In this document: positions 36,061-55,720 of the stretch, one piece after another | How the letters are laid out: each line of letters starts with the position of its first letter | How positions within the stretch are numbered: the stretch's first letter is position 1 | Sequence record: OP172790 | Reading direction: 5' to 3' (one strand) | Source of the DNA: Escherichia phage ECO319P1 | Length of the DNA: 64,000 nucleotides | Notes under the pieces: generated by a model | Told to the model about the DNA's origin: nothing | Seen by the model: the letters and a program-made list of their open reading frames with translations, nothing else | Database searches by the model: none | Program-made: the position numbers and the translations under genes

Positions 36061-36117
36061 TAACATTCACTATTATATAATGTCATGGTTTTAATCCTCA
36101 TATGTAATGGTGAATTT

Positions 36118-36246
36118 ATGAAAGTCAAAGATTATAATGAAGAACGTTGGGAACGCAACTCTGAATCAAACAAAGAGCGTAAGATTGCTAAGAAACGTTT
36201 TAAAGAGAAACATAATCCTTGGGCTAGTTTGAGTAATAAAAAATAA
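36118..36246 (+). CDS. hypothetical small basic protein (42 aa)
   Basis: ATG ORF ending just before a terminator; weak RBS. Confidence 0.3.
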   Translation: MKVKDYNEERWERNSESNKERKIAKKRFKEKHNPWASLSNKK

Positions 36247-36250
36247 GTTA

Positions 36251-36277
36251 GGGCTGCCTTCGGGCGGCCTTTTTTCG
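36251..36277 (+). terminator. rho-independent terminator (UUCG tetraloop)
   Basis: GGCTGCC / GGCGGCC stem, TTCG loop, then TTTTTTC. Confidence 0.7.
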
Positions 36278-36293
36278 TTTATGGAGGCCAAGG

Positions 36294-36731
36294 ATGGCAA
36301 GAAAGTTTAAGAAGCGCTATGCACCAAAGAAGCAGAATCTAATCAAGGGAACACCTTATGATTCACTGTTCGAGAAGGAAATTCACGAGAGGCTCCTTCA
36401 AGACGCACGTTTTCACGATAAATCGGATAGAGTTGACTATAAAGTTCCCCATTATTACGAACCCGACTTCGTGCTTGAAAAGGACGGTAAGACCTTTTAT
36501 ATTGAGACGAAAGGGAGATTTCGTGATTCGAGCGAGGCTAGGAAATATCTATTTGTTCGGGAGAATTTGCCGGAAGATGCAGAGCTAGTCTTCATTTGGG
36601 AGAAAGCCAACACTGTATTCCCGTTCGCTAAGAAGCGCAAAGACGGAACTAAGGCGACTCACGGAGAGTGGGCAGACAAGAATGGTTTTCGTAATTGGGT
36701 ACAGACGGAGTTTACAGTGGAGAAATTATGA
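36294..36731 (+). CDS. endonuclease I (Holliday junction resolvase, T7 gp3-like)
   Basis: GGAGG RBS; YEPDFVLEKDGKTFYIETKG parallels T7 endonuclease I YTPDFLLPNGIFVETKG. Confidence 0.8.
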   Translation: MARKFKKRYAPKKQNLIKGTPYDSLFEKEIHERLLQDARFHDKSDRVDYKVPHYYEPDFVLEKDGKTFYIETKGRFRDSSEARKYLFVRENLPEDAELVFIWEKANTVFPFAKKRKDGTKATHGEWADKNGFRNWVQTEFTVEKL

Positions 36732-37171
36732 TTAAATATATTGTCGCTGTTCTTGCAATAGTGGCATCATACACAGGGACATTCTATCTGGGAGTAAGTC
36801 ACGGTGTGATTGAAACTCAGAATGGGATGTTAAAGAAGAATACTGAACAGTTAGAAGATTTGATTTCTAATGTTCAAACAGTTGACACGAAACTGAATAA
36901 CAATGCTATGGTTCAAGAAGAAATCAAAGCGAAGCTCAGTTTGAGACAGAATGAAGTAACGAAGGAGGTTATTAAATATGCTCAAAGGCCTGATGCTAAC
37001 GATGTTGTGCTTGATGATGATTGGGTGCGGGTCTACAACGATTCCAACGCCTCAGCAGGAACCGGAGATACCAGTTCCAGCCAAGTACAAGGTCAAACCG
37101 GAAGAGCCAGTAGCGATGCCTCTAAGCCCCTCAAAATTGAAGTCTCTGGAAGTAGTAAAGGACAACAATGA
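36728..37171 (+). CDS. Rz: i-spanin (Rz-like)
   Basis: N-terminal TM helix then helical periplasmic domain; ATG overlaps endonuclease stop (ATGA); contains embedded Rz1 frame. Confidence 0.6.
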   Translation: MIKYIVAVLAIVASYTGTFYLGVSHGVIETQNGMLKKNTEQLEDLISNVQTVDTKLNNNAMVQEEIKAKLSLRQNEVTKEVIKYAQRPDANDVVLDDDWVRVYNDSNASAGTGDTSSSQVQGQTGRASSDASKPLKIEVSGSSKGQQ

Positions 37172-37247
37172 TGCTTGGGCACGGCTGAGACAGCGATATC
37201 TTGATTTGCTCGAATGGACTGAATCTGTTAAGCATACCAGAAAATAA
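36978..37247 (+). CDS. Rz1: o-spanin (Rz1-like outer membrane lipoprotein), embedded in +1 frame of Rz
   Basis: Strong AAGGAGG RBS; signal peptide with lipobox MIGC; Pro-rich; starts inside Rz and extends past it. Confidence 0.65.
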   Translation: MLKGLMLTMLCLMMIGCGSTTIPTPQQEPEIPVPAKYKVKPEEPVAMPLSPSKLKSLEVVKDNNDAWARLRQRYLDLLEWTESVKHTRK

Positions 37248-37249
37248 GA

Positions 37250-37268
37250 AAGGGGCGCAATGCCCCTA
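37250..37268. terminator. bidirectional terminator between convergent transcription units
   Basis: GGGGC / GCCCC hairpin flanked by A-rich tract upstream and T-rich tract downstream, between plus-strand Rz1 and minus-strand 1304-aa gene. Confidence 0.6.
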
Positions 37269-37273
37269 TTCTT

Positions 37274-40200
37274 TTATTTAATGTCTGGTGCATCAATACC
37301 AAACTCACCAATTGCCCCTTCCCCAATCGTAGCGGCTTTCTGACGTTTACGCTCCTCAGCCATCAATTCTTTCAACTTCTTAGTTGTGTGAACAACCATA
37401 TCAGAAGTATTACTCGAACCAAACACTGCAAGACGAGCACGAACACCCAAATCACCCATATACGTTGAAGTCTGGTCAGGACGACGTTTCAATGCATCAT
37501 TAACTGCTCGCATATCAGACTGAGACAACCACAGGTCTGGATTGTTAGGGAACTCTTCTTTACGTTTTAGTGCATCACGAATCGCATCACGGGTCAGGCG
37601 AATTGCTTTCGCATCATCACGAAGACCTACACGGTTCAGACTACCTGCCAACGTATTAACAGAGGTATCAAACATCTGATAACCAATGTCAGAAGTAGAA
37701 CTCAGGTTTTCAGGAATATTGTTAACCAGAGCCTCAGAGATAGCACCCACTTCATCTGGATTCTTACCCTTCATCTCAGCTTCAATAGCTTTCTTCATAC
37801 TCTCTTCCACATTCCCACCTTTCACCTCAGCCTTGTCGATAGCTTCATTGAGTTTAGCTTCATCAGCTTTCTTCTTCGCAGCTTCCATACGTTCAGCTTT
37901 GGCTTTAGCTTTTTCCTGAGCAAGTTCAACACGACGAGTCTGAGCATCATTTGCTTTCTTAACATTATCACGGAACAACTCAAGGTTATTCACCTGACGA
38001 CGCCAGTTAGCAACTTCAGTAGGCTGTGCCGTATTTGGCTTAGCAAGAGCAGCTTGTAAGGCTTCCAGTTCATTATCAATGTAGCTGTGCATTTTATTCA
38101 TGACACTCTTCATGCCAGAATCACTCAGGCCTACACCTTTGTTACCACGATTACGAGTACGTGTAGCTTTCTCGATTTCCTGACGGATTTCACGAGGAAT
38201 TGAAACATTACCTTCACCATCTACAAACAGGTCACGAGCATATTCATTCAACTCATTGTAACTGTCTTGAGCAGTTGGTTTTGGTTTAGCCTCTGGCTTA
38301 GCAGCTTTTGACTTAGTTTCAGTCTTAGCTGGAGCTTCCTCAGCGAGCAAACGCTTAACAAAGTTACCAACCTGACGAGCAGTATACATCTGACCTTCTG
38401 GTGCATTATCCTCAGCCATACGTACAGCACGGGAGAACAATTCATCAGTAACCATGTCAGAAGCAGAACGCATATCAGTTTTAAGCTGTGCTACAGCCTC
38501 ATCACGCTGTTTAATTGTCTTGGCCTGAGTAGACTCTTCAACATTATCAACAACACGTTGAGCGGCTGCTTTCGCATCTTCTGCCAGCTTAACCTTATAC
38601 TCAGCAACAACAGAAGGCAGAGCCTCTTTAACACTGGAGTAACCACGCTCTTCCATTGTACGAGTCAGAGCATCCATACCACCGTGATAGTCGATAGCAG
38701 CATAAATACCTTGTTCAGAGATACCTGAGTTTGGCTGTGCAGCATAACGTTTGATGTTCTGCTCAGTGCTTTCACGGAACTCTTTAGCTTTACGCCATTC
38801 TGGAGTACGTGGCATTGCAGAAGAAACATCTTTGTTACGAACTTTTGAGAACTCAGCTTCACGTTGTTTCAGTGGTAGCATTACCTTCTCTTTATAGTCC
38901 ACAGGTTCGCTAGGAGCCTCTGTACGGGCTTCTGGAGCTTCGGTAGTAGAAGTGCCTTCTGTAGCGGCTGGAGCTTCTTGTGGAGCCTCTGGTGCAGTCT
39001 CAACAGGTTCTTCTGCTGGAGCACGACGCTGAGAATCAACACGAGCATCCTGAGCCATCTGTTCTTGACGAGCAGCACGTTCAGCAGCTACCACTTCTGG
39101 GTCAACTACAGGCTCATTCACAGGCGCTTCACGGCTTGGAGTACGTGCCATAGTATCATCCATAGGTGCACGAGGTGTTGGCTCTACAGGAGCTTCTACA
39201 GGCGTTTCTACAGGTGCTACAGGTTCTACTGGAGCAGTTTCCATTGGAGCAGTCGTATCTGCTGGGTTGATACCCATATCACGCAGGTTATTAGCTGCTT
39301 CATCAGCGGCTGCTGCTGTGTTACCTTGTTCCAAATGTTCCTGCATACGTGCTTGAGAAGTATTCTGTGCATTTTCGATGAATTCATCAGCCTCAGAACG
39401 TGCTTGGTCAAACGCCTTACGATTACGCATAGGGCGGAGTGCACCACGAGCCAGACGGGTTACTGTACGTACTGGAGGAAGGCCAAACTTCATCAGGAGA
39501 GCATCAGAAGCTAAATCACCAGCAACAGCACCTTTACTATTCTCTTTACCTTCCTGTTTCAGAGTATTTGGATTATACTCATGAATACTTGGATTCTGCG
39601 CATGGAATACATCAGAGTAAGTATAAGCTGCTTTTGCAGTCTTAACAGGGTTGAATGCAGTACCATCAAAGTTTTTCAGGTCTTTCAGCATACCAACTTC
39701 ATTCAAAGCTCGCATTAGGGTGATAGAGTTGTTACGAAGTGAACCATCATCTAGTTTATGCAAAGATTTACCAGAAGAGTATTTACTAATACCATCATCC
39801 AAGGCTTTAGCAGCATTCAGTGCAACGTTATAGTTAGGGTCAATACGACCATCAGAATATAGAGAACTGTTTTTATCCTGAATTAAGTTAGTCAGGTTGT
39901 TACGAAGAGAACGAATAGGAGACAGAATCTCAGCATAACCTTCATCGAAAGAGTTACGGAGGTTTTTCATCTGAATTTCAGAGTTATAACCTTGTTCTTT
40001 AGCTTTCTCTTTACCGAACATCAATGGAGACATATCAGCGTACAGAGTACCACCTGCCTGTTCCAATTCACGCTCTGATTTACCCATAATATCACGGGCT
40101 AAGTTACGACCACCAACTTCCACATCCATTGCTTTAGCAGTTAATGGAGCACCTTTACGCTGAGCAAGAGCCAAAGCTGAGAGGGCTGCATCATCTGCAC

Positions 40201-43427: not shown

Positions 43428-44276
43428 TTATTTGATTCTTAACGGGGAATACATTGGTTGACTATAAATATCATTCATAGTTCTAGTTAGTAGCTGATTT
43501 TCCATTTTATTACCACGGAAGTTGGCCCTGTACGCTGGAGCAAGTTGTGGGGCACTAACACGCTGCTGTTCTTGCTCATTTGGTTTCACACTATTAATAA
43601 CACGAGAAACCTGACTCCAAGTATTTGGGTCACTTAGTGCAGAACCACTAGAAGCACCAGTTGATGTAGGAACAGTGCCAAGAGCGCTTGCGGATGCTGG
43701 AGCACTTGCTGCACCATAAGTACCACCTGATGCTGCTGCACCTTGAGTTGTTAACATAGCAGGCGTGAAAGAAGATGCACCAGCAGTAGAACCAGCAGCA
43801 CCGACACCAGCATGACCCATGCTAAGCAAAGACGAGGTTGCTGGCGCTGAGCTTGCCAATGCACCACCTGTGGTAGAAACACCACCGGCTGCTGTAGGAG
43901 CCATATAAGCACCTGCACCCACACCGCCAACTGCACTAGCACCTGTACCTGCTGCTCCAGCACCACCCGCCCCTGCTGCACCTGCCGTACCAGCAGCACC
44001 CGCACCATAAGCACCAGCCGCAGCCCAACCACCAAAGATTGTACCAACAACTGCTGCTGCTGTTTCTTGTGGGTGTTTACCTACCCAACCACCAATCCCA
44101 CCCTTACCAAGCATCTGACTATCATTTCGCTCGTTCTGACCCGGAATCTTCTTCAGCGTATCAAAACCATGCTTTGGGTCTTTGATAATATCACGAGTTA
44201 CTTGAAAAGGTTGTTCAATAAGTTCACCTGCACGATGAATACCACCTTTAAACAGACCACCTAAATCGAATCCCAT
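43428..44276 (-). CDS. Gly/Ala-rich virion protein (hypothetical)
   Basis: GGAGG RBS 6 nt before ATG at 44276 (track start 44288 is TTG); long G/A/T low-complexity core. Confidence 0.55.
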   Translation of the reverse strand: MGFDLGGLFKGGIHRAGELIEQPFQVTRDIIKDPKHGFDTLKKIPGQNERNDSQMLGKGGIGGWVGKHPQETAAAVVGTIFGGWAAAGAYGAGAAGTAGAAGAGGAGAAGTGASAVGGVGAGAYMAPTAAGGVSTTGGALASSAPATSSLLSMGHAGVGAAGSTAGASSFTPAMLTTQGAAASGGTYGAASAPASASALGTVPTSTGASSGSALSDPNTWSQVSRVINSVKPNEQEQQRVSAPQLAPAYRANFRGNKMENQLLTRTMNDIYSQPMYSPLRIK

Positions 44277-44286
44277 TATAACCTCC

Positions 44287-44306
44287 AAAAGAGGGCCGAA
44301 GCCCCC
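44287..44306 (-). terminator. intra-operon terminator/attenuator hairpin
   Basis: On minus strand GGGC-UUCG-GCCC followed by TCTTTTGG, directly after stop of upstream gene. Confidence 0.4.
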
Positions 44307-44309
44307 TTA

Positions 44310-45542
44310 TTATTTGCGTTTACGTTTACTGTTCTTAGGTTTGACACCGACTTTATCGTAGTCAACTGCGAGAGCACCAGTTTTCTTGTCTTTAACAACA
44401 GCTTCAGGTTTGTCCTTCATGACCTGCTGAGCAAGTACGCCAGAACCCTTACCTTTCATGCCTTGTTTCTTACCAGATTCGTTCCACTCCCAATCATACG
44501 TTGAAGTACCATCAGCAGTTTCACCAGTTTTCTTCACATTCTTCTTCATAGAAGCATCTGACCACCAACCAGCTTGAGCACCAGCACCGATAACACCAGC
44601 ACCAGTAGAAGCAGCGCCAAGAATGTTACCAAACATACCACCACCGCCACCAGAAGCTGTAGTCTTACCAGTGGAGTTGGAAGTACCACCCATCCCACCA
44701 ATAGAACCAACCATATTCAGGTAGTTCTGTAGGTTCTGCCAACCAGCCTGAGATTGACCGTACTGGTTGAAGTAATCATTCAGTGCCTTGTTCTGCTCTT
44801 GAGTCTGACCAATGTTAGCTGCACCAAACTGGTTTTCAAGCATCTGTTGATAGATACTCTGGCTCCCCGCTGCAAGTTGGCCCTGATTCATACCTAACTG
44901 ACCAAGAGAGTTGGCAGCATTCAAATTAGTCTGCTGATTACCCTGCAAAGTGCCAAGAGCTTGGTTATAAGCATTAGTACGAGCAGTATTCTGAATATCA
45001 GCAGTACCTTTCGCTAATGCCTCGTTAGCTTTACCAGACATTACACCCTGAGCAACACCGGCACGAGAAGAACCCATATTACCAGATGCTGTAGCCTGCT
45101 GGTTGAGCTGATTAACCTGACCCTCGTATGCCTGATTTACATCTTGAGCAAGTTGTGCAGTCTGTGATTTTACAGTGTCACTGTCATACAACTGACCTGC
45201 AAGTTCATTAACCTGCTGACCTGTAATACCACCTGAAGTCATACCACCAAGTGCATTTGATGCATTATTGACGTTAGAAGCACCACTAGAAGTGATATTA
45301 TTAATCTGGTTTGCAACATTCTGCAAGTTACCAGAGCTAGCCATATTCTGTAGGGCACTTTTCATATCGTCTGTCAAATCTGGATAGTTTTTATCAATCC
45401 AGTTACCATCAAGACCACCAGTTTTCTCATACTCTTTTTGAGCTTCTGAAAGAATATCTTTTAGCTGGTCTTGGGCAGGTGCCCACGGATTATTCTCGGT
45501 CTTGGACTCGGTTTTCTGAGTCTGGGATTTTTTCTTACCCAT
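44310..45542 (-). CDS. virion protein (hypothetical, Asn/Gln-rich)
   Basis: AAGGAG RBS before ATG 45542 (track start 45548 is TTG). Confidence 0.6.
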   Translation of the reverse strand: MGKKKSQTQKTESKTENNPWAPAQDQLKDILSEAQKEYEKTGGLDGNWIDKNYPDLTDDMKSALQNMASSGNLQNVANQINNITSSGASNVNNASNALGGMTSGGITGQQVNELAGQLYDSDTVKSQTAQLAQDVNQAYEGQVNQLNQQATASGNMGSSRAGVAQGVMSGKANEALAKGTADIQNTARTNAYNQALGTLQGNQQTNLNAANSLGQLGMNQGQLAAGSQSIYQQMLENQFGAANIGQTQEQNKALNDYFNQYGQSQAGWQNLQNYLNMVGSIGGMGGTSNSTGKTTASGGGGGMFGNILGAASTGAGVIGAGAQAGWWSDASMKKNVKKTGETADGTSTYDWEWNESGKKQGMKGKGSGVLAQQVMKDKPEAVVKDKKTGALAVDYDKVGVKPKNSKRKRK

Positions 45543-45554
45543 TTTCAATTCTCC

Positions 45555-45821
45555 TTATTTCTGGTCTGGATATGGAAGTACAATCGGTGGCTTACCAGAT
45601 GCAACCAGAAGTACGTTAACGTTATCCACGATGATATTAATCGAGTTAGTAACCCAAATGAGAGCCTGAGAAATACTCTCAAACTCCCTGTCAAGGTCAC
45701 GTTTAAAATGATTTTCATCAAGGAACAGTGGTTTATAGATACGATAGGGTTGCTTTGTACGGTCAACCGCTGTAGTATCTGCATAGGCATATAAAGCTGC
45801 CCTTGAGTTTGTAGGTGTCAT
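45555..45821 (-). CDS. hypothetical protein
   Basis: ATG overlaps upstream stop (TAATG). Confidence 0.5.
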   Translation of the reverse strand: MTPTNSRAALYAYADTTAVDRTKQPYRIYKPLFLDENHFKRDLDREFESISQALIWVTNSINIIVDNVNVLLVASGKPPIVLPYPDQK

Positions 45822-47557
45822 TAACGATTCCCCTCTCTGAAGTAATCCACATCATAACCAATCATATTCCACTCACCTTCCGCTGTATCAAGAATACGGA
45901 TTGCAGGGTAACGATAGTTGCTGAAGCAGTCTACCTTGTGGTCAGTTTCAATGTCGAAGTCCTGCCAAGAATCCCATACAGGTGAACCATTCGGGCTATT
46001 AGAACCACCAATGAAGAATCGTACAGTACCTTTACCACCCATCTGGGGGTAAATCGTTCTCCACCATTTGTGGTACGAGATATCTGGCTCTTGTTCATCG
46101 AAATCCAGTGCATCACGTCGTACTTCACAATAAACAGGTCGAGAAGTTACTGTAGTCTTAGCAGGGTCTAATGGGTTCCAACCCGGCCCACCAATCTTGG
46201 TGTAATCATAATAATCTTGCTTATAACCTGTATCAAGCATGTAGAAACATCTGTCCATCGAAGCACCAAACATCTGGTGTCGGGTAAATGTTTGTGCATA
46301 CTGGTTCCAAACATCCTCTTTGATATCTTCTGAGTTCCATGCATAGTCATTAACACCGGAAGGGTCATAATGCTCCCATGTACGGGAATCAGTCTCTGGA
46401 CTAATACCAAGTGCGATATCATAGATGTTAGGTAGGTCTGCAAAAGTCCAAGTGTTATACTCCCAAGACCAGATGGCTGCTTTGTCACAAGCATATTTAT
46501 CTTCTGGAGCACTACCTGCTACTGCTGCTGGAGCATTCGTGGATACATAGGTAATCCAAATCTCTTTTCGAGTAGGGTAGGAATAAACACGAGTTGCATT
46601 AAAGTTCGTACTTGAAATCTGATTCATGAGGTAGTCTTTAATACGACCGGTTGCAACAGATTGACGAGTAGAACCGTTGTGTACGAAAATATCCTCTTCA
46701 CTGATAACGAAGTGTTGACCTTCAAATTCTACACAACAGTTAGCTGCCAGAATACCAGAGTCAGAGAAGATTTTACGGAAGTTGAATACCATTGTACCAC
46801 CTACATAGTCCATGATAAATGTATCACGGTTAGTGTAGATAACGAAGGAGTCACGAAGTGGACGTCCATCAATGATGTGAGATTGTGAGTCAGTCAGGTC
46901 GTTAAAGCCGCCATCCTTGGTTTCATCATCTTCAATCCAGTCTGGTGGTAAAGTACCAACATATGCTGTATTCGACCAACGAACACGCTGAGGATAATTA
47001 ACACCAGCTTCAGTGATGCCCATGCAAAGCAAGTAGGTTTTATAAGCACGAATACGATTTGTCTTCCAGTCAATTTTTGCCCCACCAGCTTTCTTAGGTT
47101 GTCCCCAACCCGGTAGGTCATGAAAGTTCTTTTCGCTTGGTGCAATACCCTGTGGGTCACTTTTGTTAGTGTTGAAGATAACTGTGTTGGACAGAGTTGT
47201 ATACTCCCAAGGCTCACCCGGTTCAACTTCATAACGAACTGGATTATTATCTGAACCTAATTTGGAGATATTCTTATGTGATACACCCTCTGCACGGTAA
47301 ATAGAACCTTTGTTATCCGCAGGATTCCAAGTACCGTAAACAAGAGACTCCGTAATTGGCTGTTGTACAACCCCTAGAGGAATCTCTTGTGGCATATCAC
47401 GAAGAAGAGCAGCTTTAGCGCCTCCGATTTTCTGAACTCGATTAGCTTCAAACCGGACGTTATTAGCCCAAGACCAATCTGAAGGTGTCAAGTCATATGG
47501 TGGGATATCAGTTGTTACACCAGTTTTCCCAACATTACGTAAGCGCATAATTGTCAT
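45821..47557 (-). CDS. putative tail protein (578 aa)
   Basis: AAGGAG RBS; located between tail fibre genes and internal proteins. Confidence 0.55.
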   Translation of the reverse strand: MTIMRLRNVGKTGVTTDIPPYDLTPSDWSWANNVRFEANRVQKIGGAKAALLRDMPQEIPLGVVQQPITESLVYGTWNPADNKGSIYRAEGVSHKNISKLGSDNNPVRYEVEPGEPWEYTTLSNTVIFNTNKSDPQGIAPSEKNFHDLPGWGQPKKAGGAKIDWKTNRIRAYKTYLLCMGITEAGVNYPQRVRWSNTAYVGTLPPDWIEDDETKDGGFNDLTDSQSHIIDGRPLRDSFVIYTNRDTFIMDYVGGTMVFNFRKIFSDSGILAANCCVEFEGQHFVISEEDIFVHNGSTRQSVATGRIKDYLMNQISSTNFNATRVYSYPTRKEIWITYVSTNAPAAVAGSAPEDKYACDKAAIWSWEYNTWTFADLPNIYDIALGISPETDSRTWEHYDPSGVNDYAWNSEDIKEDVWNQYAQTFTRHQMFGASMDRCFYMLDTGYKQDYYDYTKIGGPGWNPLDPAKTTVTSRPVYCEVRRDALDFDEQEPDISYHKWWRTIYPQMGGKGTVRFFIGGSNSPNGSPVWDSWQDFDIETDHKVDCFSNYRYPAIRILDTAEGEWNMIGYDVDYFREGNR

Positions 47558-47567
47558 TCTTTACTCC

Positions 47568-48446
47568 TTATGCAGTACGACGGAACATGTAAACCACAAT
47601 ATATGGTTGGATGTTGTTGTGTTTTTGGTTACCACCCGTGGTCTGTACACCACCAGTAATCTGGAGTGAGTGTTCATGAGCACCATCAGTTGTAGTACGA
47701 TAAATACCACCATTACCACCGTGAGAACGAGCATCATAGTTAATGTAACGTTCTTTATAGTTAAATGCTTCCAAACCATCATCACCCATGAACAAGTGAT
47801 AGTGAGCACCGTTAGAAAGTGCACGACCACCAATATCATGTGGGTGTGAGTGAGCAGGCATTTCACCAGTAGTTAGTGTGTGATAATATTTACCACCTTG
47901 TGCCAGAACAGTGTTGTAGTTAATAGAATCAGTACCATCGTTACCAACACCATAACCAACAAGAACACGACCCGGAGCAAACTGCTGCCAAGTACCGAAA
48001 CCAAACAGGTCGGCTGGGTTTGTTGCAGTCGCTGAAATGTAGATAGAACCTACAGGCCATGATGCCACCATACCACCATTACGTTCCAGATAACGACGAG
48101 ATACCGCATCATCAAGACCAGCATCACCAGCACGAGGCAGTGGGACACCAGTTACAACGTTTTTATTGGTATTGATACCATCTTTGTTGAAGTTAATGGT
48201 CTTAGAAGTACCAGTCATTAAGAAAGTTTTGTTACAGCTAACGGAGTCAGCATCGAACTTCAAGTTTGCGTCTAACAAGTTCATAGTATCAGAACTGATA
48301 GTAAGCTTCTTATTAAAGCTTGAGAAAGTGTTAGTCAGAGTGGTTTTGATAAGACGAATGTGGTCGTCACCCTCTTTGATTAAGTCACCGCTCAGAGGCC
48401 AAGAAGTATTAAGTTCGCTGACAAATCCAGCCTTCTCTACCGTCAT
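47568..48446 (-). CDS. tail fibre protein with phage tail-collar domain
   Basis: GGGAG RBS; C-terminal GEMPAHSHP motif typical of tail-collar domain. Confidence 0.65.
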   Translation of the reverse strand: MTVEKAGFVSELNTSWPLSGDLIKEGDDHIRLIKTTLTNTFSSFNKKLTISSDTMNLLDANLKFDADSVSCNKTFLMTGTSKTINFNKDGINTNKNVVTGVPLPRAGDAGLDDAVSRRYLERNGGMVASWPVGSIYISATATNPADLFGFGTWQQFAPGRVLVGYGVGNDGTDSINYNTVLAQGGKYYHTLTTGEMPAHSHPHDIGGRALSNGAHYHLFMGDDGLEAFNYKERYINYDARSHGGNGGIYRTTTDGAHEHSLQITGGVQTTGGNQKHNNIQPYIVVYMFRRTA

Positions 48447-48694
48447 TTATGTTTCTCCCGTTGGTTCAAATTATTTACTAAATCAGAGAGTGTTTTAATA
48501 GTTTCTGATTGAACTGCCTGAGTCTTATCAATCCTATTCAGAATCTCCCTCGTTGTGTTAACGATGCTCCCCTGTTCAGCCTGTGTGCTTTTGAGAATCT
48601 GTACATCCACATATGTGTTTATACCGACACCAATCGAAGCGACAGATAACGAGGTGGCTACACCGATAAGAATATTTCTTAGTGCGTCTTCCAT
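48443..48694 (-). CDS. hypothetical protein with N-terminal TM segment
   Basis: ATG start; stop overlaps next ATG (ATGA). Confidence 0.45.
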   Translation of the reverse strand: MEDALRNILIGVATSLSVASIGVGINTYVDVQILKSTQAEQGSIVNTTREILNRIDKTQAVQSETIKTLSDLVNNLNQREKHK

Positions 48695-48755
48695 TTCATT
48701 TTTTCCTTAATTAACCGCCAATAACATTTCTATTAGTGACGGTTAAGGGAAAAGA

Positions 48756-49232
48756 TTACTTATTACTCTCTGGGTCAGGGTCTTCTGGGAATTCAGAACG
48801 TTTCCACTCTGCATACTTATCAATGAAGTCTTTATACTTAATTAAGAAGTCTGCATACTTAACACCAAAATCTGTATACTGAGTTGTGAACCCATCAATC
48901 ATCTTCTGAGTGTTGGTAATCATACCGCTCAATGTGGTAATCTGAGTGTTAGTTTCAGTGACCTGTTTATCAATCACAGCAACCTGAGCCTGAATGTATT
49001 TCAGAGATTCAGCAGCAAAGTCTGCCTGTTCTTGTGCAGATTCAGCAGCCTCCTGAGCCTCTGATACCCAAACAGCCAAATCTTTTACACCAGAAAGGTC
49101 ACGAGAAGTCCAACCAAATTGACCTGCGTTTGGAAGAGAAGCTTCTGTAATCATGACTGCTGAGTTTGGGTCAGTTGCCATTGGGTTAACACGGAGTACA
49201 CGACGTACCCCGTTAGAACTATACAAAGCCAT
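48756..49232 (-). CDS. tail fibre-associated protein, N-terminal domain paralogous to 52143-52922
   Basis: AGGAGG RBS; segment PNAGQFGWTSRDLSGVKDL paralleling GQPNVGLFAWTTNDLTGIKDI of the other gene. Confidence 0.55.
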   Translation of the reverse strand: MALYSSNGVRRVLRVNPMATDPNSAVMITEASLPNAGQFGWTSRDLSGVKDLAVWVSEAQEAAESAQEQADFAAESLKYIQAQVAVIDKQVTETNTQITTLSGMITNTQKMIDGFTTQYTDFGVKYADFLIKYKDFIDKYAEWKRSEFPEDPDPESNK

Positions 49233-52150
49233 TATAAGCCTCCTTGTTCGTACATATCATCTCCCGGTTTGAGATGCTTGTACATCATATATAAGCTAAG
49301 TCCGCGGTAAATCTCACCAGACCAGAAACCAAAGAACATGCCATTGTTTTCAGGGCCATTACCAGTGTTCAAGCGCAAACCCGGACTCCAAGAGCCATTC
49401 ATTACATGGTTTGGAATACCAGTAATGTGATAGTTTGAAGTCAGTTCATTAACCAACATCTCAATCAACCTATCATCGTGTTCAACTTTAGAACCAGCTA
49501 AGTGGGCAATACAAGCGCCAGCTAACCACAAACCACACATATGTCCAGTAAAGTCAGTTGGGTCACAAACAACCTTACCATCTGTAGTGAAATCTGTTGG
49601 AGAGACGCCACCATTGGCTTTCATTGTTTTGTACAGGAACTTAGTCCAGTTCTCAACATATGTAACCAGTTTTGGTGGTACAGGATACTTCTTGATTACC
49701 AATTCATACCAAGCACGAGCAGCACTGAAATAAGCACGAGGTTGATAACCAGCCCAAGCATGACCATCACCCCAATGGTACATAGTCCAAGTGTTTGGAG
49801 TACCATATTTGTAGTTATCCCATCTATCCCAAATATATGCTGATGCACCCGGCCCAAGTTGACCATATTTGTTATAGAACCACTGTTGTGATTGATATAA
49901 GAACTCAACCATGTTATTCAATTTACGACCATCAACATCACCCGGATTGTCAATCCAAATCATTGGGTGTTGGTAACCCGGATAAGGCATACCATGCCAA
50001 CCATCAAACTGACCAGATGCTGATTCATTGTTGTAAATGTTTGAGAATGGAATTGTACCCGGAGTACAGAACAGACCACCATCCACAGCGTTAGTAACAC
50101 GACAATCACCAAGTTTGAAAGTGAAAGCATCACTACCCGCAACAGTTAGGGTGTACATCATGAGAACACGAGTGTTTCCATAGTTGTAAGTGCCCGGTAA
50201 GCTGTTTACACAATACCAAGTGGCATAAGCGAGTGGTGCATTATCAAGTTTCTTAGACAAGTTCATCTGAGTAACTTTCTCCTCACCATTCCACTTTGTA
50301 GGTCGAGTAGGCGGAACCCAAGGCTGACCCGGATGTTCAATATCCCAATTAGGTGGCTTCTGCTCATTTTCCTGATAATTATTCAAAGTAATCTTTGTCC
50401 AATCAAGAGGCGCCTGAGTCCACTGTTCATTAGTGTTTGCAATATCCCAACCCCAAGTCCAATTCTGAGAATCAGTTACAGAAACTCGCATCGGAGAGTT
50501 ACACTTGATTGCAATGCTTTCAGGTTTAATCTTCTCCTCTTCAGTCAGCCAGAAGCCAATAACAGTACCATCATTGTCAGTTGGCATATTACAGTGGGAT
50601 ACGATAGAGCTACGACCATCCACGACACCAGTTTCATATTGCAGAATTGATTGAGCGTCACCGTAGTCAACAATGATTCGCTTGTCAGCCATGATGAAGT
50701 CTTTACCATTGGCATCAACCAGTTGGTAGAAGTCAGTCATTTTGGTTTCGATTGATACGGGAACAAAGCCCGGAGAGTACGGAAGTTTTGCCTGCCATGT
50801 TTCCCACTGAGATTCTGGGGTTTGGCGAGAGTTTGCAACTTTGATTTTAACAGAAGCTTCAAGGTAAGTACCAGTTCTGTCTTGACCAGACATTGTGGTT
50901 AGTACACTTGATTTATTGTTAACATCAAACCAAACCGATTGCTGTTCAAGGGTGTGTTGTGCAGCCCTGTCAGCAGCAACATCAATGTAACCTTGAGAAT
51001 CTCGACCATAAGTAATGTTCACACCATCCGGATAAGTATAATCGTAAGAGATACCGTCAGTGTAAGGTGAGAGTGCACCAACTTCTTTACGGAAGAAATA
51101 GTCATTACTATCAATTCGAGAATACTCGTCAACAGTAACCATTGCACATTTCCAAACCATCTCATACTTAGATTTATCTGGGTCACTATCATCAGCAATC
51201 TTCCACATCACATACGCAGCATCAAGGAACCACTGTTCTGCATCCGAAGCATTACCAAAGTTCAAAGTACCTTCAACTGGAACGTTCATTGGGCGGTTAT
51301 GCCAAGGTTTGTTACGACCCATCAAATAGCCACCATGTTCAACAGGTTGACGGTTACACCAGTTAGCTTTGTGCTGACCGTTAACAGAAGTGTTCTTCAG
51401 TTTGACTGTACCAATCTCCGACAGTGGGTGACCCTCTGAAAGAACATTACCATCCCAATCAATCTTCTGACCAGTATAAGCAATTACCCAATCAACGTCA
51501 TATTGAACACCCTTCTTGTTCCAGTCAGTTGTTACACCATCATCTTTCAAACCATAAACAGTAGCAACAATTGATTTCCAACCTAAAGCACCATCAAATG
51601 CAAAGGTAAACTTATCAAGGTATTCACCCCAAAGAGGAGCACCATGAGGAATCTTAGTCTGTCCATTTGTCCAGTTAAGCATCTCACCTTGGAAGCCACC
51701 ATGAGTTGGGTATCCATCTTCAGCCAGAGGCCAGTTAGCCAGAACAGGCTCTTTACCGTTTATAATCCAGTTACAGATATAACGTTTAGGAGTGTCAGGA
51801 ATAGGGTTATCACCTGCACTGTTATAGAAATGGTCAATATACGCATCAAAACACTCCTTAGCTGCTGTACGATACTCCTCTAAGCCTGTGGCCATGTAAG
51901 CATACGCAAAACCAAGAATCTGTAGGGATTGACCTTCAGTAGTTGCGTCACCATTAGGTTGAGCTTCCATCTGAGCACGGGCAATGAAGTGTCGGTTATT
52001 GGAGAGGATTTTCTCCGGGTTGAAAACATAATGCTCTTTACTTGCATCATTAGTGAGGCCAGTATTAACATCAAGGAATTTTTTGTGCCCACGCATCATC
52101 GAGAGCACATCACTCTGCTCAAAATTGCTATTGAAAAAGCTATTAAGCAT
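49232..52150 (-). CDS. large tail spike/receptor-binding candidate (approx 972 aa)
   Basis: GGAGG RBS 9 nt before ATG at 52150 (track start 52189 is GTG); W/Y/N/D-rich; flanked by fibre-adaptor-like genes. Confidence 0.55.
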   Translation of the reverse strand: MLNSFFNSNFEQSDVLSMMRGHKKFLDVNTGLTNDASKEHYVFNPEKILSNNRHFIARAQMEAQPNGDATTEGQSLQILGFAYAYMATGLEEYRTAAKECFDAYIDHFYNSAGDNPIPDTPKRYICNWIINGKEPVLANWPLAEDGYPTHGGFQGEMLNWTNGQTKIPHGAPLWGEYLDKFTFAFDGALGWKSIVATVYGLKDDGVTTDWNKKGVQYDVDWVIAYTGQKIDWDGNVLSEGHPLSEIGTVKLKNTSVNGQHKANWCNRQPVEHGGYLMGRNKPWHNRPMNVPVEGTLNFGNASDAEQWFLDAAYVMWKIADDSDPDKSKYEMVWKCAMVTVDEYSRIDSNDYFFRKEVGALSPYTDGISYDYTYPDGVNITYGRDSQGYIDVAADRAAQHTLEQQSVWFDVNNKSSVLTTMSGQDRTGTYLEASVKIKVANSRQTPESQWETWQAKLPYSPGFVPVSIETKMTDFYQLVDANGKDFIMADKRIIVDYGDAQSILQYETGVVDGRSSIVSHCNMPTDNDGTVIGFWLTEEEKIKPESIAIKCNSPMRVSVTDSQNWTWGWDIANTNEQWTQAPLDWTKITLNNYQENEQKPPNWDIEHPGQPWVPPTRPTKWNGEEKVTQMNLSKKLDNAPLAYATWYCVNSLPGTYNYGNTRVLMMYTLTVAGSDAFTFKLGDCRVTNAVDGGLFCTPGTIPFSNIYNNESASGQFDGWHGMPYPGYQHPMIWIDNPGDVDGRKLNNMVEFLYQSQQWFYNKYGQLGPGASAYIWDRWDNYKYGTPNTWTMYHWGDGHAWAGYQPRAYFSAARAWYELVIKKYPVPPKLVTYVENWTKFLYKTMKANGGVSPTDFTTDGKVVCDPTDFTGHMCGLWLAGACIAHLAGSKVEHDDRLIEMLVNELTSNYHITGIPNHVMNGSWSPGLRLNTGNGPENNGMFFGFWSGEIYRGLSLYMMYKHLKPGDDMYEQGGL

Positions 52151-52922
52151 CGAACCAACCTCCATTATAGAAGCCGAACCACTTAGCACCAGAATCTTTC
52201 GTTAACAGTGTGATAACATCAATCTTGCCATTATCATATGACAGGACAGGTTCACGACCATTGTTCCAGCGAACTGTGGTAGGCCATTTAATTTTGTTAG
52301 CACCAGTACCCTGTTGAACCATGAGTGTAATCTGACGACACAGGTCAGGTTCATTGGTTGGTGAGTCAATTGTCAAAGTCGTAGTTGAAGCTGTCAGTTT
52401 CAGAAGTTGTACTGTAGCATCTGTTACGTGAACAGTATGTGATGTACCTTCTGCTTTATCTTCATAATACTTATACACTGAAAGCATCTGATATTTCATA
52501 ATCTCTGCTCGCCAAGCATCAATCTGATTATACTGATTGTTTACTGCAACTTGGATATTTCTTGCTTCATCAACATACTTATGAATTTCGTTAACATCAA
52601 CGTTGATTGTGTCAGCGAGTTTCTTCATATCTTCGTACTGTTGGTCAATCTTAACAACAATAGCTTCATATCTATTTGCTACTTCATCCACATGGTCTTT
52701 GGTAGCTTCAGTTTGTGCTGCTGCTGCTTCTGCTCGTTCCGCTGCTGCAAGTGCTGTCTTGACATACGTGATGATATCCTTGATACCAGTTAAATCATTC
52801 GTAGTCCAAGCAAAAAGGCCAACGTTCGGCTGGCCTCCTGCAACAATGTCTTCCGCAGATTCATCTGCCGTCGGGGCAGCATAAGCTCTTGGTTGAACAG
52901 GAGCGTTAAGTGCGATGGACAT
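52143..52922 (-). CDS. tail fibre-associated protein with conserved N-terminal anchor-like domain
   Basis: GGAGG RBS; N-terminal region paralogous to 48756-49232. Confidence 0.55.
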   Translation of the reverse strand: MSIALNAPVQPRAYAAPTADESAEDIVAGGQPNVGLFAWTTNDLTGIKDIITYVKTALAAAERAEAAAAQTEATKDHVDEVANRYEAIVVKIDQQYEDMKKLADTINVDVNEIHKYVDEARNIQVAVNNQYNQIDAWRAEIMKYQMLSVYKYYEDKAEGTSHTVHVTDATVQLLKLTASTTTLTIDSPTNEPDLCRQITLMVQQGTGANKIKWPTTVRWNNGREPVLSYDNGKIDVITLLTKDSGAKWFGFYNGGWFDA

Positions 52923-52936
52923 TTATTAATCCTCCA

Positions 52937-53626
52937 TTAGTGGTCAAAGTAAGGGACAACAAATGCAGAACCAGACCATTCAGCTTCATCAATCTGAGTC
53001 TGAAGCGATTCAGCGGCTTCCTGTGCTTTACTCATCCAGTACTGCTCCATCTCAACATCACGAATGAAGATTGACGCATGACGCATTGACAAGTACAGTA
53101 GAACATCAGGAGCAACCAGAAGTGAATAAGGTTGGTCATTATCAAACTGCATTTCAGGAATATCCTGTCGGTAAATAAGCTCTACAACATCACCAACCTT
53201 TGGGGTTGGCAGGAAGTGAATCTGCTCACCAATACGAGTGAAGAAGTATGACTTGTCTGAAGTAGAACCTGCTTGGTCACTGAGAATTACACCACTATCT
53301 GGGTCATTCTTACTTGTAACATAATCACGAGTGTTGTTAAGATTCTTCATACGCATGAACGTTTCAACATCAACACGGTTATACGGCTTACCATTAACCA
53401 TCATATGTTTTGCACTCAGGAAGTCCTGTGGGATTACCACGTAGTCAAAGTTTTCATCAATAGTAAACTCAGATTTAACTTCATAGTACGGCAACTTAAC
53501 CAAACGTGTAAACTGCTTCTCAGCGAAGTTAATAAACATTGGAATGTTATTAATCGTTGCCGAGTCCTTACGGTTGAGCCAAAGAGCAACCGCTTCTTTC
53601 AAATCTTTATAAGTATCAATATTCAT
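52937..53626 (-). CDS. virion protein (hypothetical; possible head-tail adaptor)
   Basis: GGAG RBS before ATG at 53626 (track start 53638 is TTG). Confidence 0.5.
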   Translation of the reverse strand: MNIDTYKDLKEAVALWLNRKDSATINNIPMFINFAEKQFTRLVKLPYYEVKSEFTIDENFDYVVIPQDFLSAKHMMVNGKPYNRVDVETFMRMKNLNNTRDYVTSKNDPDSGVILSDQAGSTSDKSYFFTRIGEQIHFLPTPKVGDVVELIYRQDIPEMQFDNDQPYSLLVAPDVLLYLSMRHASIFIRDVEMEQYWMSKAQEAAESLQTQIDEAEWSGSAFVVPYFDH

Positions 53627-53638
53627 TCTTGGCTCCAA

Positions 53639-54191: not shown

Positions 54192-54632
54192 TTATTCACT
54201 AGGTGCGGGTTTTGGGTCACAAGATACCCGGCTTGAATCGCTAAACTCAAGACCTTTGTAAGTAACCTTAGCACCAACACGACCACCACCCTCTTTAACA
54301 CCAGTGATAGTTGCCTTGAGTGGGTCAGTACCATCTTTAGCAACAGTTACATAACCATCATCACCAGTATCAGGTTCCACAAACCAATCAACAGTATAAC
54401 CAGTACCAAGACCAGAAACAGTTGCTGTGATTTCAGCAGTACCTTCAACGACAAGACCAGATACGCTGGAAGTTGTTACAGAGCCATCAACAACGGTAAT
54501 TTTTACAGTTGCTTTCTTGGTTGGGTCTGTTTTAGCTGCAACAGTAATGTTGGCGCTACCAGCAGCAACGCCTTGTACATTAACAGTCTGAGCAGCTTTT
54601 GCAGCCAATGCTGCTTTGCTTACTCGTGCCAT
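54192..54632 (-). CDS. Ig-like (Big_2-like) domain protein, possible capsid decoration
   Basis: Thr/Val-rich beta-strand pattern; starts 2 nt after MCP2 stop with RBS inside MCP2 3' end. Confidence 0.6.
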   Translation of the reverse strand: MARVSKAALAAKAAQTVNVQGVAAGSANITVAAKTDPTKKATVKITVVDGSVTTSSVSGLVVEGTAEITATVSGLGTGYTVDWFVEPDTGDDGYVTVAKDGTDPLKATITGVKEGGGRVGAKVTYKGLEFSDSSRVSCDPKPAPSE

Positions 54633-54634
54633 TA

Positions 54635-55720
54635 TTAAGCTCCTTTAGCAATGGATTCATTATCAGACGTAACAGTAACTGTTTGGTCTGCATCTTCAGG
54701 GCTTACAGTAACAGACAGCGCAATTGTTTCACCAACTTTCACAAACTGCTCTGTACCACCTGCGATAGCAACAGATTCAACTGGAGGCTTCGGAGGGGTT
54801 ACACCCATTTTCAGAATACCAGATGCGAATGGGTTAGCATGGCGTAAGCCTACTTCCATTTCAATCATCCACTTCTCGTAGCTACCATCCTTAGCTAGTT
54901 TCACACGCTCTGGTGAACGGAGAACCATCTGAGTCCAATCTTTTGCACGGAAGAAGTAGATTGCATCCTGTGGCATCCAACGGTTAGGGATAAGTCGATA
55001 GCGCTGACCAAGTGGGTCAATGACTTCAGTTACATAAGCATTGAACTTAGTGTCCTTACCATCGAACATCTTAACTCGGTCACCTACACCAACTTCCATT
55101 AAGGAGCTGAAGAAGGAGGCATGTTTTGGATGGAACATGATGATATCAGCATGAGAGCCAGACAGATATAGATTATAAGTCAGACCCCAGATATCAGATT
55201 CGACAGGTTCATCACCAGCAATGCCTTTATGGACAACAGCGCCAGTATCTTCATCTGGTTCATCAAGACCAGCAACCAGAGATTCAAAACCACCAGTAAG
55301 TCGAGGTTTAGTACTCGCATCACCAGCATCTTTCTCTTGAGCAGACAGGAGGATTAACTCTAAGTCACGCTTCAGTTCTTTACCTGCCTTCTCCATTTGG
55401 TATTGCAGTTCACGACCGCGACCATAGTTTGCAAGAGCATTAGCAGTATCAGAAACCTTCAGGACTTTACGGAGAATCTGAGTATAGTTATTGAGAGTTG
55501 TAGTTGAGGCCAGAGCGCCATCGGCAGCAGTTGAACCTTCCACTACAGCATTATCGACAACAGCAGCGAGTGAGTCGGTCTGCCATTGGAAGAGTGTTTG
55601 GGCGATGGATTCTTTACCGGTCATACTAACAAACGGGGTGTCAGTTGGGGACAGGTTAGAAATCCAATTCGCAAACGAGAGTTTCTTACCATTTAGGTCA
55701 TATGAAACTAAAGTCGCCAT
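54635..55720 (-). CDS. major capsid protein paralog 2 with C-terminal Ig-like domain
   Basis: First 36 aa identical to paralog 1 and high similarity across approx 310 aa; extra approx 50 aa C-terminal Ig-like segment; AAAGGAG RBS. Confidence 0.8.
   Translation of the reverse strand: MATLVSYDLNGKKLSFANWISNLSPTDTPFVSMTGKESIAQTLFQWQTDSLAAVVDNAVVEGSTAADGALASTTTLNNYTQILRKVLKVSDTANALANYGRGRELQYQMEKAGKELKRDLELILLSAQEKDAGDASTKPRLTGGFESLVAGLDEPDEDTGAVVHKGIAGDEPVESDIWGLTYNLYLSGSHADIIMFHPKHASFFSSLMEVGVGDRVKMFDGKDTKFNAYVTEVIDPLGQRYRLIPNRWMPQDAIYFFRAKDWTQMVLRSPERVKLAKDGSYEKWMIEMEVGLRHANPFASGILKMGVTPPKPPVESVAIAGGTEQFVKVGETIALSVTVSPEDADQTVTVTSDNESIAKGA

What the first reader, a model, noticed from the sequence alone, without database searches (positions are those of the whole stretch)
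47568..52922. Tail-fibre module with a shared anchor domain on two genes flanking a large spike candidate
The proteins from 52143-52922 and 48756-49232 share a related N-terminal segment and bracket the approx 972-aa W/Y/N/D-rich protein; a separate tail-collar-domain fibre lies just downstream. A shared N-terminal anchor on different distal domains is typical of exchangeable receptor-binding proteins, suggesting two receptor-binding devices.
Basis: partly seen in the sequence, partly recalled or inferred. Interest (0 to 1): 0.5.

Follow-up and report, generated by a model that had tools for sequence, protein, structure and literature searches.

The report
Podophage tail-fibre module, duplicated anchor
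This is the tail-fibre gene block of a long-headed, short-tailed enterobacterial phage, in which two genes share one tail-attachment motif: one links to a large, sugar-cleaving-enzyme-like tip protein, and the other is a bare coiled-coil stub. It is mostly ordinary phage architecture with two uncharacterised details.

Summary
The proteins from 52143-52922 (259 aa) and 48756-49232 (158 aa) share a highly significant N-terminal motif and flank a 972-aa protein. A fibre gene lies just downstream.

The window is a Crifsvirus-like (Grimontviridae) prolate podophage; the 259-aa protein is 100% identical to one from Escherichia phage ECO319P1. The shared motif sits directly after a SU10-type adaptor gene. 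It recurs on two pectate-lyase-like tailspikes in Aeromonas phage APT65 and resembles, weakly, the adaptor-binding N-terminus of the SU10 long fibre.

- The 158-aa protein has no distal domain. It is the anchor plus about 100 residues of coiled coil.
- The 259-aa protein ends in a widespread beta-sandwich fibre knob. That knob is found at the C-terminus of the gene immediately upstream of the large protein in all 11 unfused contexts checked (podo-, myo- and prophage).
- The downstream fibre is the SU10 gp16-type short tail fibre.

The two receptor devices are therefore probably the anchor plus large tip, and the short fibre. The stub's role is open. Novelty and interest are modest.

The parts
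52937..53638 (-). Head-to-tail adaptor (233 aa). It lies outside the finding but is the presumed docking platform for the two anchor-bearing proteins.
   Evidence: Pfam SU10_adaptor 5e-30. 32% identity to SU10 gp11, E = 1.6e-27.
52143..52922 (-). Fibre proximal/anchor subunit (259 aa). Anchor motif at residues ~25-62 (nt 52737-52850), a single long helix/coiled coil at residues 46-146 (nt 52485-52787), and a C-terminal beta-sandwich knob at residues 152-258 (nt 52149-52469).
   Evidence: AF2 model pLDDT 85, knob >90. Heptad a/d hydrophobic fraction 0.83. The knob family has 6782 cluster representatives, mostly at protein C-termini. PHROG tail-fibre families match residues 145-257.
49232..52150 (-). 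Large distal protein (972 aa). A split (alpha/alpha)6 barrel (helices 10-109, 302-344, 742-957) with beta-sandwich insertions (129-300, 368-700). It overlaps the upstream gene by 8 nt.
48756..49232 (-). Paralogous anchor-plus-coiled-coil stub (158 aa). Anchor motif at residues ~27-64 (nt 49041-49154); four exact heptads [KQ]Yx[DE][FW] at residues 118-143 (nt 48804-48881); no globular distal domain. Its start overlaps the stop of the large gene by 1 nt.
   Evidence: Its Privateer homolog gp010 (138 aa) lies directly after the adaptor gene in a phage that lacks the 259/972 cassette. The same N-terminus heads the 1172-aa tailspike APT65_15.
48443..48694 (-). Small protein (83 aa) with an N-terminal hydrophobic helix and a coiled coil. 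It is conserved between the stub gene and the short-fibre gene; its role is unknown (holin-like or a virion component).
   Evidence: PHROG 13258, 'virion structural protein', 1.6e-37. Kyte-Doolittle maximum 1.79 at residues 8-26; it occupies the same slot as SU10 gp14, annotated 'putative holin'. 100% identical in GAP52 and A24.
47568..48446 (-). Short tail fibre (292 aa), homolog of SU10 gp16.
   Evidence: BLASTP to SU10 gp16, E = 9e-19. Pfam Gp10_C 1.7e-26. PHROG 6465, 'tail protein'.
45821..47557 (-). Nozzle protein (578 aa), homolog of SU10 gp17. It is the dock for the short fibre in SU10 and lacks about 470 residues of the SU10 protein.
   Evidence: BLASTP aligns residues 1-67 to gp17 1-68, and residues 116-557 to gp17 536-983, E = 1.8e-64.

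Best explanation
The region is the adaptor-proximal receptor-recognition module of a Crifsvirus-like (Grimontviridae) prolate podophage. Its layout parallels the tail of Kuravirus SU10.

(1) The 259-aa protein is the proximal subunit of a two-part lateral fibre. Its N-terminal motif docks the trimer on the adaptor ring, as the first ~90 residues of SU10 gp12 do. A ~100-residue coiled coil forms a stalk of about 15 nm, and a C-terminal beta-sandwich knob ends it.

(2) The 972-aa protein, translationally coupled to the 259-aa gene, is the distal subunit held by that knob. It consists of a conserved (alpha/alpha)6 glycoside-hydrolase-like barrel, which binds and probably cleaves a conserved surface glycan, plus a variable beta-sandwich module that probably tunes specificity.

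(3) The 158-aa protein is an old paralog of the anchor-plus-stalk with no tip. It most likely also sits on the adaptor as a tip-less stub, possibly bracing or latching the short fibres. In SU10 the long-fibre stalk contacts the short fibre.

(4) The 292-aa protein is the nozzle-borne short tail fibre that makes the second, terminal contact.

Shown here: the homologies, the folds and the gene adjacency. Inferred: every physical attachment, the enzyme activity, the substrate and the stub's role.
For: Identity and synteny:
- 100% identity of the 259-aa protein to Escherichia phage ECO319P1; 87% nucleotide identity to Cronobacter phages GAP52 and A24, Grimontviridae.
- The adaptor, short fibre, nozzle and ejection protein are homologous to SU10 gp11, gp16, gp17 and gp22, in the same order.

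Anchor:
- The similarity is significant and lies outside the coiled coil.
- The same invariant positions are found in both families, in Privateer gp010 and in APT65_14/15.
- The anchor profile picks SU10 gp12 residues 12-74 as the best of 12 SU10 proteins, E = 5e-4. hhalign against four Kuravirus gp12 N-termini gives P = 4.9e-5, probability 68%.
- Cryo-EM showed that the first 90 residues of SU10 gp12 bind the adaptor and that residues 71-78 touch the short fibre (PMC9509320).

Cassette:
- The knob lies at the C-terminus of the gene immediately upstream of the large gene in GAP52, A24, 7-11, Lu221, T7-like Atoyac13, phi92-like VEcB, FelixO1-like M7, and in Pseudomonas, Spongiibacter, Salmonella/Rosemountvirus and Gluconobacter loci. 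E-values are 1e-24 to 2e-38, and the N-termini are unrelated, including a T7 tail-fibre domain.
- In T7-likes this pair is the only fibre locus seen in the stretch examined.
- One relative replaces the small protein with a fused Tail_P2_I domain.
- The genes overlap by 8 nt and 1 nt.

Large protein:
- Confident model and GH-like barrel.
- Invariant D/E/H/R/W/Y residues sit at helix N-termini.
- The barrel is conserved and the insert is variable.
- In phage S144, proteins of 21 and 111 kDa in the same gene slots were detected in virions by mass spectrometry (PMC7432712). Orthology there is inferred from size and synteny.
Against: - The sequence link to SU10 gp12 is weak. The motif-only profile scores a Kuravirus gp12 at only E = 0.82 among 1388 six-frame segments.
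- No experiment or multimer model shows the knob binding the large protein, and no knob-to-large-protein fusion was found.
- The knob family is far larger than the large-protein family. In many fibres it is terminal or repeated, so it may itself be a binding tip.
- The large protein matches no curated GH family by sequence, and catalytic residues were not mapped in 3D.
- SU10 has six fibre sites, each using two adaptor subunits. How two anchor-bearing trimers share them is unexplained.
- No data show that the 158-aa protein is in virions.
Confidence: 0.6

Rival explanations
1. One reading: two interchangeable receptor-binding proteins use the same anchor, each with its own distal receptor-binding domain, giving two adaptor-borne receptor devices. 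The large protein is a separate spike.
For: The shared anchor is real. In APT65 two anchor-bearing genes do carry different pectate-lyase-like distal domains.
Against: The 158-aa protein is anchor plus coiled coil up to a short acidic tail, with no globular domain. The knob of the 259-aa protein travels with the large protein across phage families. The distal parts are not swapped between the E. coli and Cronobacter members.
Confidence: 0.1
2. The 259-aa protein is a complete short fibre whose knob is itself the receptor-binding tip. The large protein attaches elsewhere, or only loosely, as an accessory glycan-degrading enzyme.
For: The knob is the terminal domain of thousands of small fibre-like proteins that have no large partner, and it follows collagen-like or coiled-coil shafts.
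Against: The large protein has no recognisable tail-binding domain of its own. In T7-like phages the only T7-type tail-fibre N-domain in the locus is on the small protein. Adjacency and overlap held in all 11 contexts. The Tail_P2_I fusion shows that the large protein needs an attachment module.
Confidence: 0.15
3. The 158-aa protein is not a virion appendage. It is an assembly factor for the fibre (a coiled-coil chaperone), or it co-assembles with the 259-aa protein into heterotrimers that fit the three non-equivalent N-terminal contacts seen in SU10.
For: It lies directly downstream of the fibre genes and is translationally coupled to them, like many fibre chaperones. Its stalk is about as long as that of the 259-aa protein, roughly 90-100 residues after the motif. 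The three N-termini of a SU10 fibre make different contacts.
Against: Privateer keeps the stub directly after the adaptor gene without the 259/972 cassette, so it cannot be only their chaperone or partner. Its anchor residues are conserved like those of true tailspikes. The coiled-coil sequences of the two proteins are dissimilar beyond the anchor.
Confidence: 0.15

Closest known systems
Kuravirus SU10 long tail fibre (gp12 proximal + gp13 distal) on the gp11 adaptor, with short fibre gp16 on nozzle gp17 (PMC9509320)
   Same: Same gene order after a homologous adaptor. An N-terminal motif followed by a coiled coil, a two-protein fibre (proximal plus distal), and homologous short fibre and nozzle.
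   Different: The proximal subunit is 259 aa rather than 786 aa and ends in a knob. The distal subunit is an unrelated (alpha/alpha)6 protein. There is a second anchor-bearing gene. The nozzle lacks about 470 residues of SU10 gp17.
T7-type modular fibres: conserved N-terminal tail-binding domain (Pfam Phage_T7_tail) on variable distal parts
   Same: The principle of a conserved anchor with a variable remainder. T7-like Aeromonas phage Atoyac13 carries the same knob-plus-large-protein cassette behind a T7 anchor.
   Different: The anchor here is unrelated in sequence to Phage_T7_tail.
Branched or dual RBP systems with docking domains (CBA120 TSP4 N-terminal domains, T4 gp10-like; Klebsiella anchor-branch RBPs)
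   Different: The similarity is weak. The recruited protein is not a beta-helix tailspike. No interaction has been shown.
(alpha/alpha)6-barrel glycoside hydrolases (GH8, GH76, GH88/GH105)
   Different: 7-12% identity and no family-level sequence match. About 500 residues of beta-sandwich insertions. Activity is unknown.
T4 fibritin (wac) whiskers
   Different: No sequence relation and no foldon. It attaches to the adaptor rather than the neck, and its function is untested.

Membership tests
SU10/Kuravirus-type adaptor-bound long-fibre anchor (gp12 N-terminus) | The gene lies directly downstream of a SU10-type adaptor gene | tested here: met
   The adaptor at 52937-53638 matches Pfam SU10_adaptor at 5e-30, and the 259-aa gene starts 15 nt after it. 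Privateer gp010 and APT65_14 hold the same position.
SU10/Kuravirus-type adaptor-bound long-fibre anchor (gp12 N-terminus) | N-terminal sequence homologous to gp12 residues 1-90 | tested here: inconclusive
   hmmsearch E = 5e-4 among 12 SU10 proteins, in the right register. hhalign P = 4.9e-5, probability 68%. The motif-only HMM gives only E = 0.82 in a search of 1388 segments. Pairwise BLAST gives E = 0.94.
SU10/Kuravirus-type adaptor-bound long-fibre anchor (gp12 N-terminus) | Physical binding of the trimer's N-termini to adaptor subunits | not testable with these tools
   This needs cryo-EM or multimer modelling; only monomer prediction was available.
Exchangeable receptor-binding proteins sharing one anchor | Two or more proteins with a homologous N-terminal anchor in one genome | tested here: met
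   The same holds in 7-11, GAP52, A24, Lu221 and APT65.
Exchangeable receptor-binding proteins sharing one anchor | Each anchor carries a different distal receptor-binding domain | tested here: not met
   The 158-aa protein has no distal domain. The feature is met in APT65, where both proteins are pectate-lyase-like and one also carries an S74 chaperone.
Glycoside hydrolase with (alpha/alpha)6 barrel (GH8/GH76/GH88/GH105-like) | (alpha/alpha)6 barrel fold | tested here: met
Glycoside hydrolase with (alpha/alpha)6 barrel (GH8/GH76/GH88/GH105-like) | Sequence membership in a curated GH family | tested here: not met
   No Pfam hit at E <= 0.1. Against PDB, the family profile gives one 25-residue match to a GH76 chain at E = 0.012.
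Glycoside hydrolase with (alpha/alpha)6 barrel (GH8/GH76/GH88/GH105-like) | Catalytic acid/base pair in the barrel funnel; measurable activity | not testable with these tools
   Invariant D68, D303, E305, D778 and E946 and nearly invariant E72 lie at or near helix N-termini.
Beta-helix tailspike depolymerase | Right-handed parallel beta-helix | tested here: not met
Phage tail collar domain fibre (Pfam Collar PF07484), for the 292-aa protein | Match to the Collar family | tested here: not met
   The only Pfam hit is Gp10_C (PF21939), 1.7e-26. The protein is a SU10 gp16 homolog.

The most novel reading that the evidence does not exclude
The adaptor ring of Grimontviridae carries two kinds of trimer through one duplicated anchor. 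Enzyme-tipped fibres are interleaved with tip-less coiled-coil stubs, using all twelve adaptor subunits or forming mixed trimers. The stubs act as the latch that holds and then releases the short tail fibres. The large tip protein founds a new, structurally unsolved family of virion-borne (alpha/alpha)6 glycosidases. These would act on a conserved envelope glycan, which would explain why the family stays about 45% identical across podo-, myo- and prophage lineages instead of diversifying like ordinary receptor-binding proteins.
Probability: 0.15. Interest if true: 0.6.

Novelty: new variant of a known kind. Interest (0 to 1): 0.38.

Why it matters
Conserved anchors on modular fibres are the handles used to re-target phages, and defining this one gives such a handle for Grimontviridae (shown in two family members, and in the related Aeromonas phage APT65, Aquaneticvirus), possibly also for Kuravirus if the weak link to SU10 gp12 holds.

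The knob-plus-large-protein cassette occurs in more than 500 sequenced phages, including phi92-like, rV5-like, Rosemountvirus, FelixO1-like Erwinia, jumbo and T7-like phages. It has no solved structure and no known substrate. If the large protein is an enzyme acting on a conserved glycan, it would be a broadly useful reagent, and it would explain part of the 'conserved tail-fibre locus' puzzle noted for Vequintavirinae (PMC8594841).

The same module occurs in the plasmid-dependent phages Lu221 and Hi226, whose receptor-binding protein is unknown.

Tried and rejected
- A beta-helix spike or an internal virion protein for the 972-aa protein. Rejected by fold and by tail-locus context and fusions.
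- Direct PDB sequence relatives for the 972-, 259- and 158-aa proteins and for the family profiles. None found.
- The word-indexed homolog search for the 158-aa protein gave only 2 hits. tblastn against phages was used instead.
- A Rosetta-stone fusion of the knob and the large protein. None among 15 long knob-bearing proteins.
- The Pfam hits of the 158-aa protein (MIP-T3_C, Laminin_II and others) are treated as coiled-coil noise.
- Virion evidence for the stub. The Privateer proteomics paper does not mention gp010 in the text searched, and the 7-11 expression paper has nothing on tail genes.
- Host-range determinants by comparison with GAP52 and A24. No swapped domain, only modest divergence, highest in the two anchor proteins.

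Full report
**What is there.** All genes of the finding lie on the minus strand.

| Coordinates | Product | Identification |
|---|---|---|
| 52937-53638 | 233 aa | adaptor |
| 52143-52922 | 259 aa | anchor, stalk and knob |
| 49232-52150 | 972 aa | large protein |
| 48756-49232 | 158 aa | anchor and stalk only (stub) |
| 48443-48694 | 83 aa | small hydrophobic/coiled-coil protein |
| 47568-48446 | 292 aa | short tail fibre |
| 45821-47557 | 578 aa | nozzle |
| 45555-45821 | 88 aa | needle N-terminal domain homolog |
| downstream | | ejection proteins |

The 259-aa protein is 100% identical to a protein of Escherichia phage ECO319P1. The nearest records in the phage collection are Cronobacter phages GAP52 and A24 (87% nucleotide identity; Grimontviridae, Crifsvirus), followed by Salmonella phage 7-11 and the plasmid-dependent phages Lu221 and Hi226. 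The adaptor matches Pfam SU10_adaptor (5e-30). The short fibre, nozzle and an ejection protein are homologous to SU10 gp16, gp17 and gp22, in the same order. The published cryo-EM description of the SU10 tail (PMC9509320) is therefore the right frame of reference.

**The observation.** The two flanking proteins do share an N-terminal segment.
- BLASTP gives E = 4e-11.
- Each protein hits the other's PHROG family.
- The pair is conserved in 7-11.
- The first 62-64 residues, upstream of the coiled coil, score 97 against 22.5 +/- 4.4 in 5000 shuffles. Coiled-coil composition therefore does not explain the match.
- The core is P-N-[VAS]-G-x-F-[GA]-W-T-[ST]-x-D-L-[ST]-G-[IV]-K-D-[IL]-x-x-[YW]-V.
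- A profile of this core finds exactly two ORFs in the 64-kb window.

**What the shared segment is.**
- In Proteus phage Privateer a 138-aa homolog of the stub follows the adaptor gene directly, and the 259/972 pair is absent.
- In Aeromonas phage APT65 the motif heads two consecutive genes after the adaptor. One encodes a 607-aa and the other a 1172-aa pectate-lyase-like tailspike; the second also carries an S74 chaperone domain.
- A profile of the Grimontviridae anchors picks SU10 gp12 residues 12-74 as the best of the 12 SU10 tail-region proteins (E = 5e-4). Profile-profile alignment with four Kuravirus gp12 N-termini gives P = 4.9e-5, probability 68%.
- This link is weak. The motif-only model scores a Kuravirus gp12 at only E = 0.82 in a larger search. 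It is, however, positionally and syntenically coherent.
- In SU10 the first 90 residues of gp12 bind the adaptor.

I conclude, with moderate confidence, that the shared segment is the adaptor-docking anchor.

**The 259-aa protein.** AF2 with 104 sequences gives pLDDT 85.
- Residues 1-45 have no assigned secondary structure (block-mean pLDDT 51-62).
- Residues 46-146 form a single helix with an unbroken heptad register.
- Residues 152-258 form a beta-sandwich with pLDDT above 90.

**The large protein.** AF2 with 86 sequences gives pLDDT 90.7 and pTM 0.86.
- The barrel is split into helices 10-109, 302-344 and 742-957, with about 500 residues of beta-sandwich insertions between them.
- There is no beta-helix, no Pfam family, no PDB sequence relative, and no full-length structural relative.
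- Invariant D, E, H, R, W and Y residues lie at or near helix N-termini.
- Across 86 family members the barrel keeps about 0.6 identity to the query. Residues 441-680 fall to 0.12-0.35, and the same patch is the least conserved against GAP52.
- The segment 496-652 is also found in another tail protein, M7 gp040.

The family is in 535 phage records, including phi92-like, rV5-like, Rosemountvirus, FelixO1-like Erwinia phages, jumbo phages and T7-like phages. It is unusually conserved, at about 45% identity across hosts.

**How the large protein is attached (inferred).** In every unfused context examined, the gene immediately upstream ends in the knob while its N-terminus differs. These contexts were four Grimontviridae, T7-like Atoyac13, phi92-like VEcB, FelixO1-like M7, a P2-like Pseudomonas prophage, a Spongiibacter prophage, a Rosemountvirus-like Salmonella contig and a Gluconobacter prophage. 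In Atoyac13 the N-terminus is a Pfam Phage_T7_tail domain. One relative instead has a Tail_P2_I domain fused to its own N-terminus. In the window the genes overlap by 8 nt, and the stub gene overlaps the large gene by 1 nt. This pattern fits a two-gene cassette: a lineage-specific anchor with a knob, plus a large tip. It parallels SU10 gp12 and gp13. No fusion of the knob to the large protein was found, so the interaction remains an inference. In phage S144, proteins of 21 and 111 kDa in the corresponding gene slots were detected in virions (PMC7432712). I infer orthology there from size and synteny with a Rosemountvirus-type locus, not from sequence.

**The stub.**
- The 158-aa protein is anchor plus coiled coil. 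Its a/d hydrophobic fraction is 0.93, and it has four exact [KQ]Yx[DE][FW] heptads, a repeat also present in Privateer gp010 and in APT65_15.
- It has no distal domain, so it is not a second receptor-binding protein in the usual sense.
- Its stalk is about as long as that of the 259-aa protein.
- It persists in Privateer without the cassette, so it has a function of its own.
- In SU10 the long-fibre stalk contacts the short fibre. My preferred, low-confidence reading is therefore a tip-less strut or latch on the adaptor.
- How two anchor-bearing trimers share the six double-subunit sites described for SU10 is unexplained. The options are twelve sites, mixed occupancy or heterotrimers.

**Comparison within the genus.** Against GAP52 and A24 the two anchor proteins are the most divergent, at 79-88% identity. 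The large protein (94-95%), the short fibre (97%) and the 83-aa protein (100%) are nearly invariant. No domain swap accompanies the difference in named host, E. coli versus Cronobacter. This argues for a conserved receptor, or for host range being set elsewhere.

**Verdict.** This is a recognisable kind of system, a modular podophage fibre with a conserved anchor and an enzymatic tip, with two uncharacterised twists: the tip-less paralog, and a widespread, unsolved knob-plus-(alpha/alpha)6 cassette. Interest is modest (0.38).

Noticed in passing
window 45821-47557 (-): The nozzle protein aligns to SU10 gp17 only at residues 1-68 and 536-983. About 470 residues of the SU10 protein are missing. 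If these are the four 'nozzle domains', this phage could not build the SU10-type 28-nm nozzle extension in the same way.
   Followed up: partly
window 45555-45821 (-): This 88-aa ORF matches only the N-terminal part of Privateer gp014, a 520-aa tail-tip protein with a Phage_Tail_Tip domain. It sits in the slot of the SU10 needle gp18 (322 aa), so the needle/tip protein appears drastically shortened here.
   Followed up: partly
window 54635-55720 and 55801-56739 (-), plus 54192-54632 (-): Two paralogous major-capsid genes have identical first ~36 residues; the second copy has an Ig-like C-terminal extension. They are followed by a separate 146-aa ORF that sits in the slot of SU10's annotated 'Ig-like domain protein' (not tested here). 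Privateer makes its longer capsid form by frameshifting instead.
   Followed up: no
window 44310-45548 (-): The ejection protein (PHROG 4287, homolog of SU10 gp22) has a Peptidase_S74 'chaperone of endosialidase' match at residues 330-384 (E = 7e-5, just above the Pfam cut-off). This is unusual for an internal ejection protein.
   Followed up: no
window 48443-48694 (-): This 83-aa protein has an N-terminal hydrophobic helix and a coiled coil, and a weak XhlA-type 'hemolysin' PHROG hit (0.007). It is 100% identical in GAP52 and A24 and is conserved in Privateer (gp011) and APT65 (gene 16). It occupies the slot of SU10 gp14, annotated 'putative holin'. Databases call it a virion structural protein; which is right is unclear.
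   Followed up: partly
L009 (phage PKM.Lu.22.1) 3344-8646: The plasmid-dependent phages Lu221 and Hi226 carry the same anchor / large protein / stub / short-fibre module (large protein 70% identical, anchors 48-50%). One of these proteins may therefore recognise a plasmid-encoded structure, and the dependence of other family members on conjugative plasmids has apparently not been tested.
   Followed up: no
L007 (Erwinia phage M7) 3038-4546; window 50195-50665 (-; residues 496-652 of the large protein): The variable beta-sandwich segment of the large protein (residues 496-652) is shared with a different tail protein, M7 gp040 (27% identity, E = 9e-15), and with PHROG 23426. It is thus a mobile sub-domain.
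   Followed up: partly
P0012, P0037, P0061 (metagenomic relatives of the large protein): Some relatives carry C-terminal extensions. One has an N4 gp65-like non-contractile tail sheath domain pair (NCTSP_N plus TIM barrel); others have a Gly_rich_2 domain. The large protein can therefore serve as a platform for further distal modules.
   Followed up: no
window ~36000-40000: Cumulative GC skew peaks here and GC skew changes sign, consistent with a switch in coding strand between the two halves of the window. Not examined further.
   Followed up: no
window 43428-44288 (-): A 286-aa protein made largely of Ala/Gly/Ser/Thr low-complexity sequence (PHROG 27929, unknown function) lies among the ejection-protein genes.
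   Followed up: no
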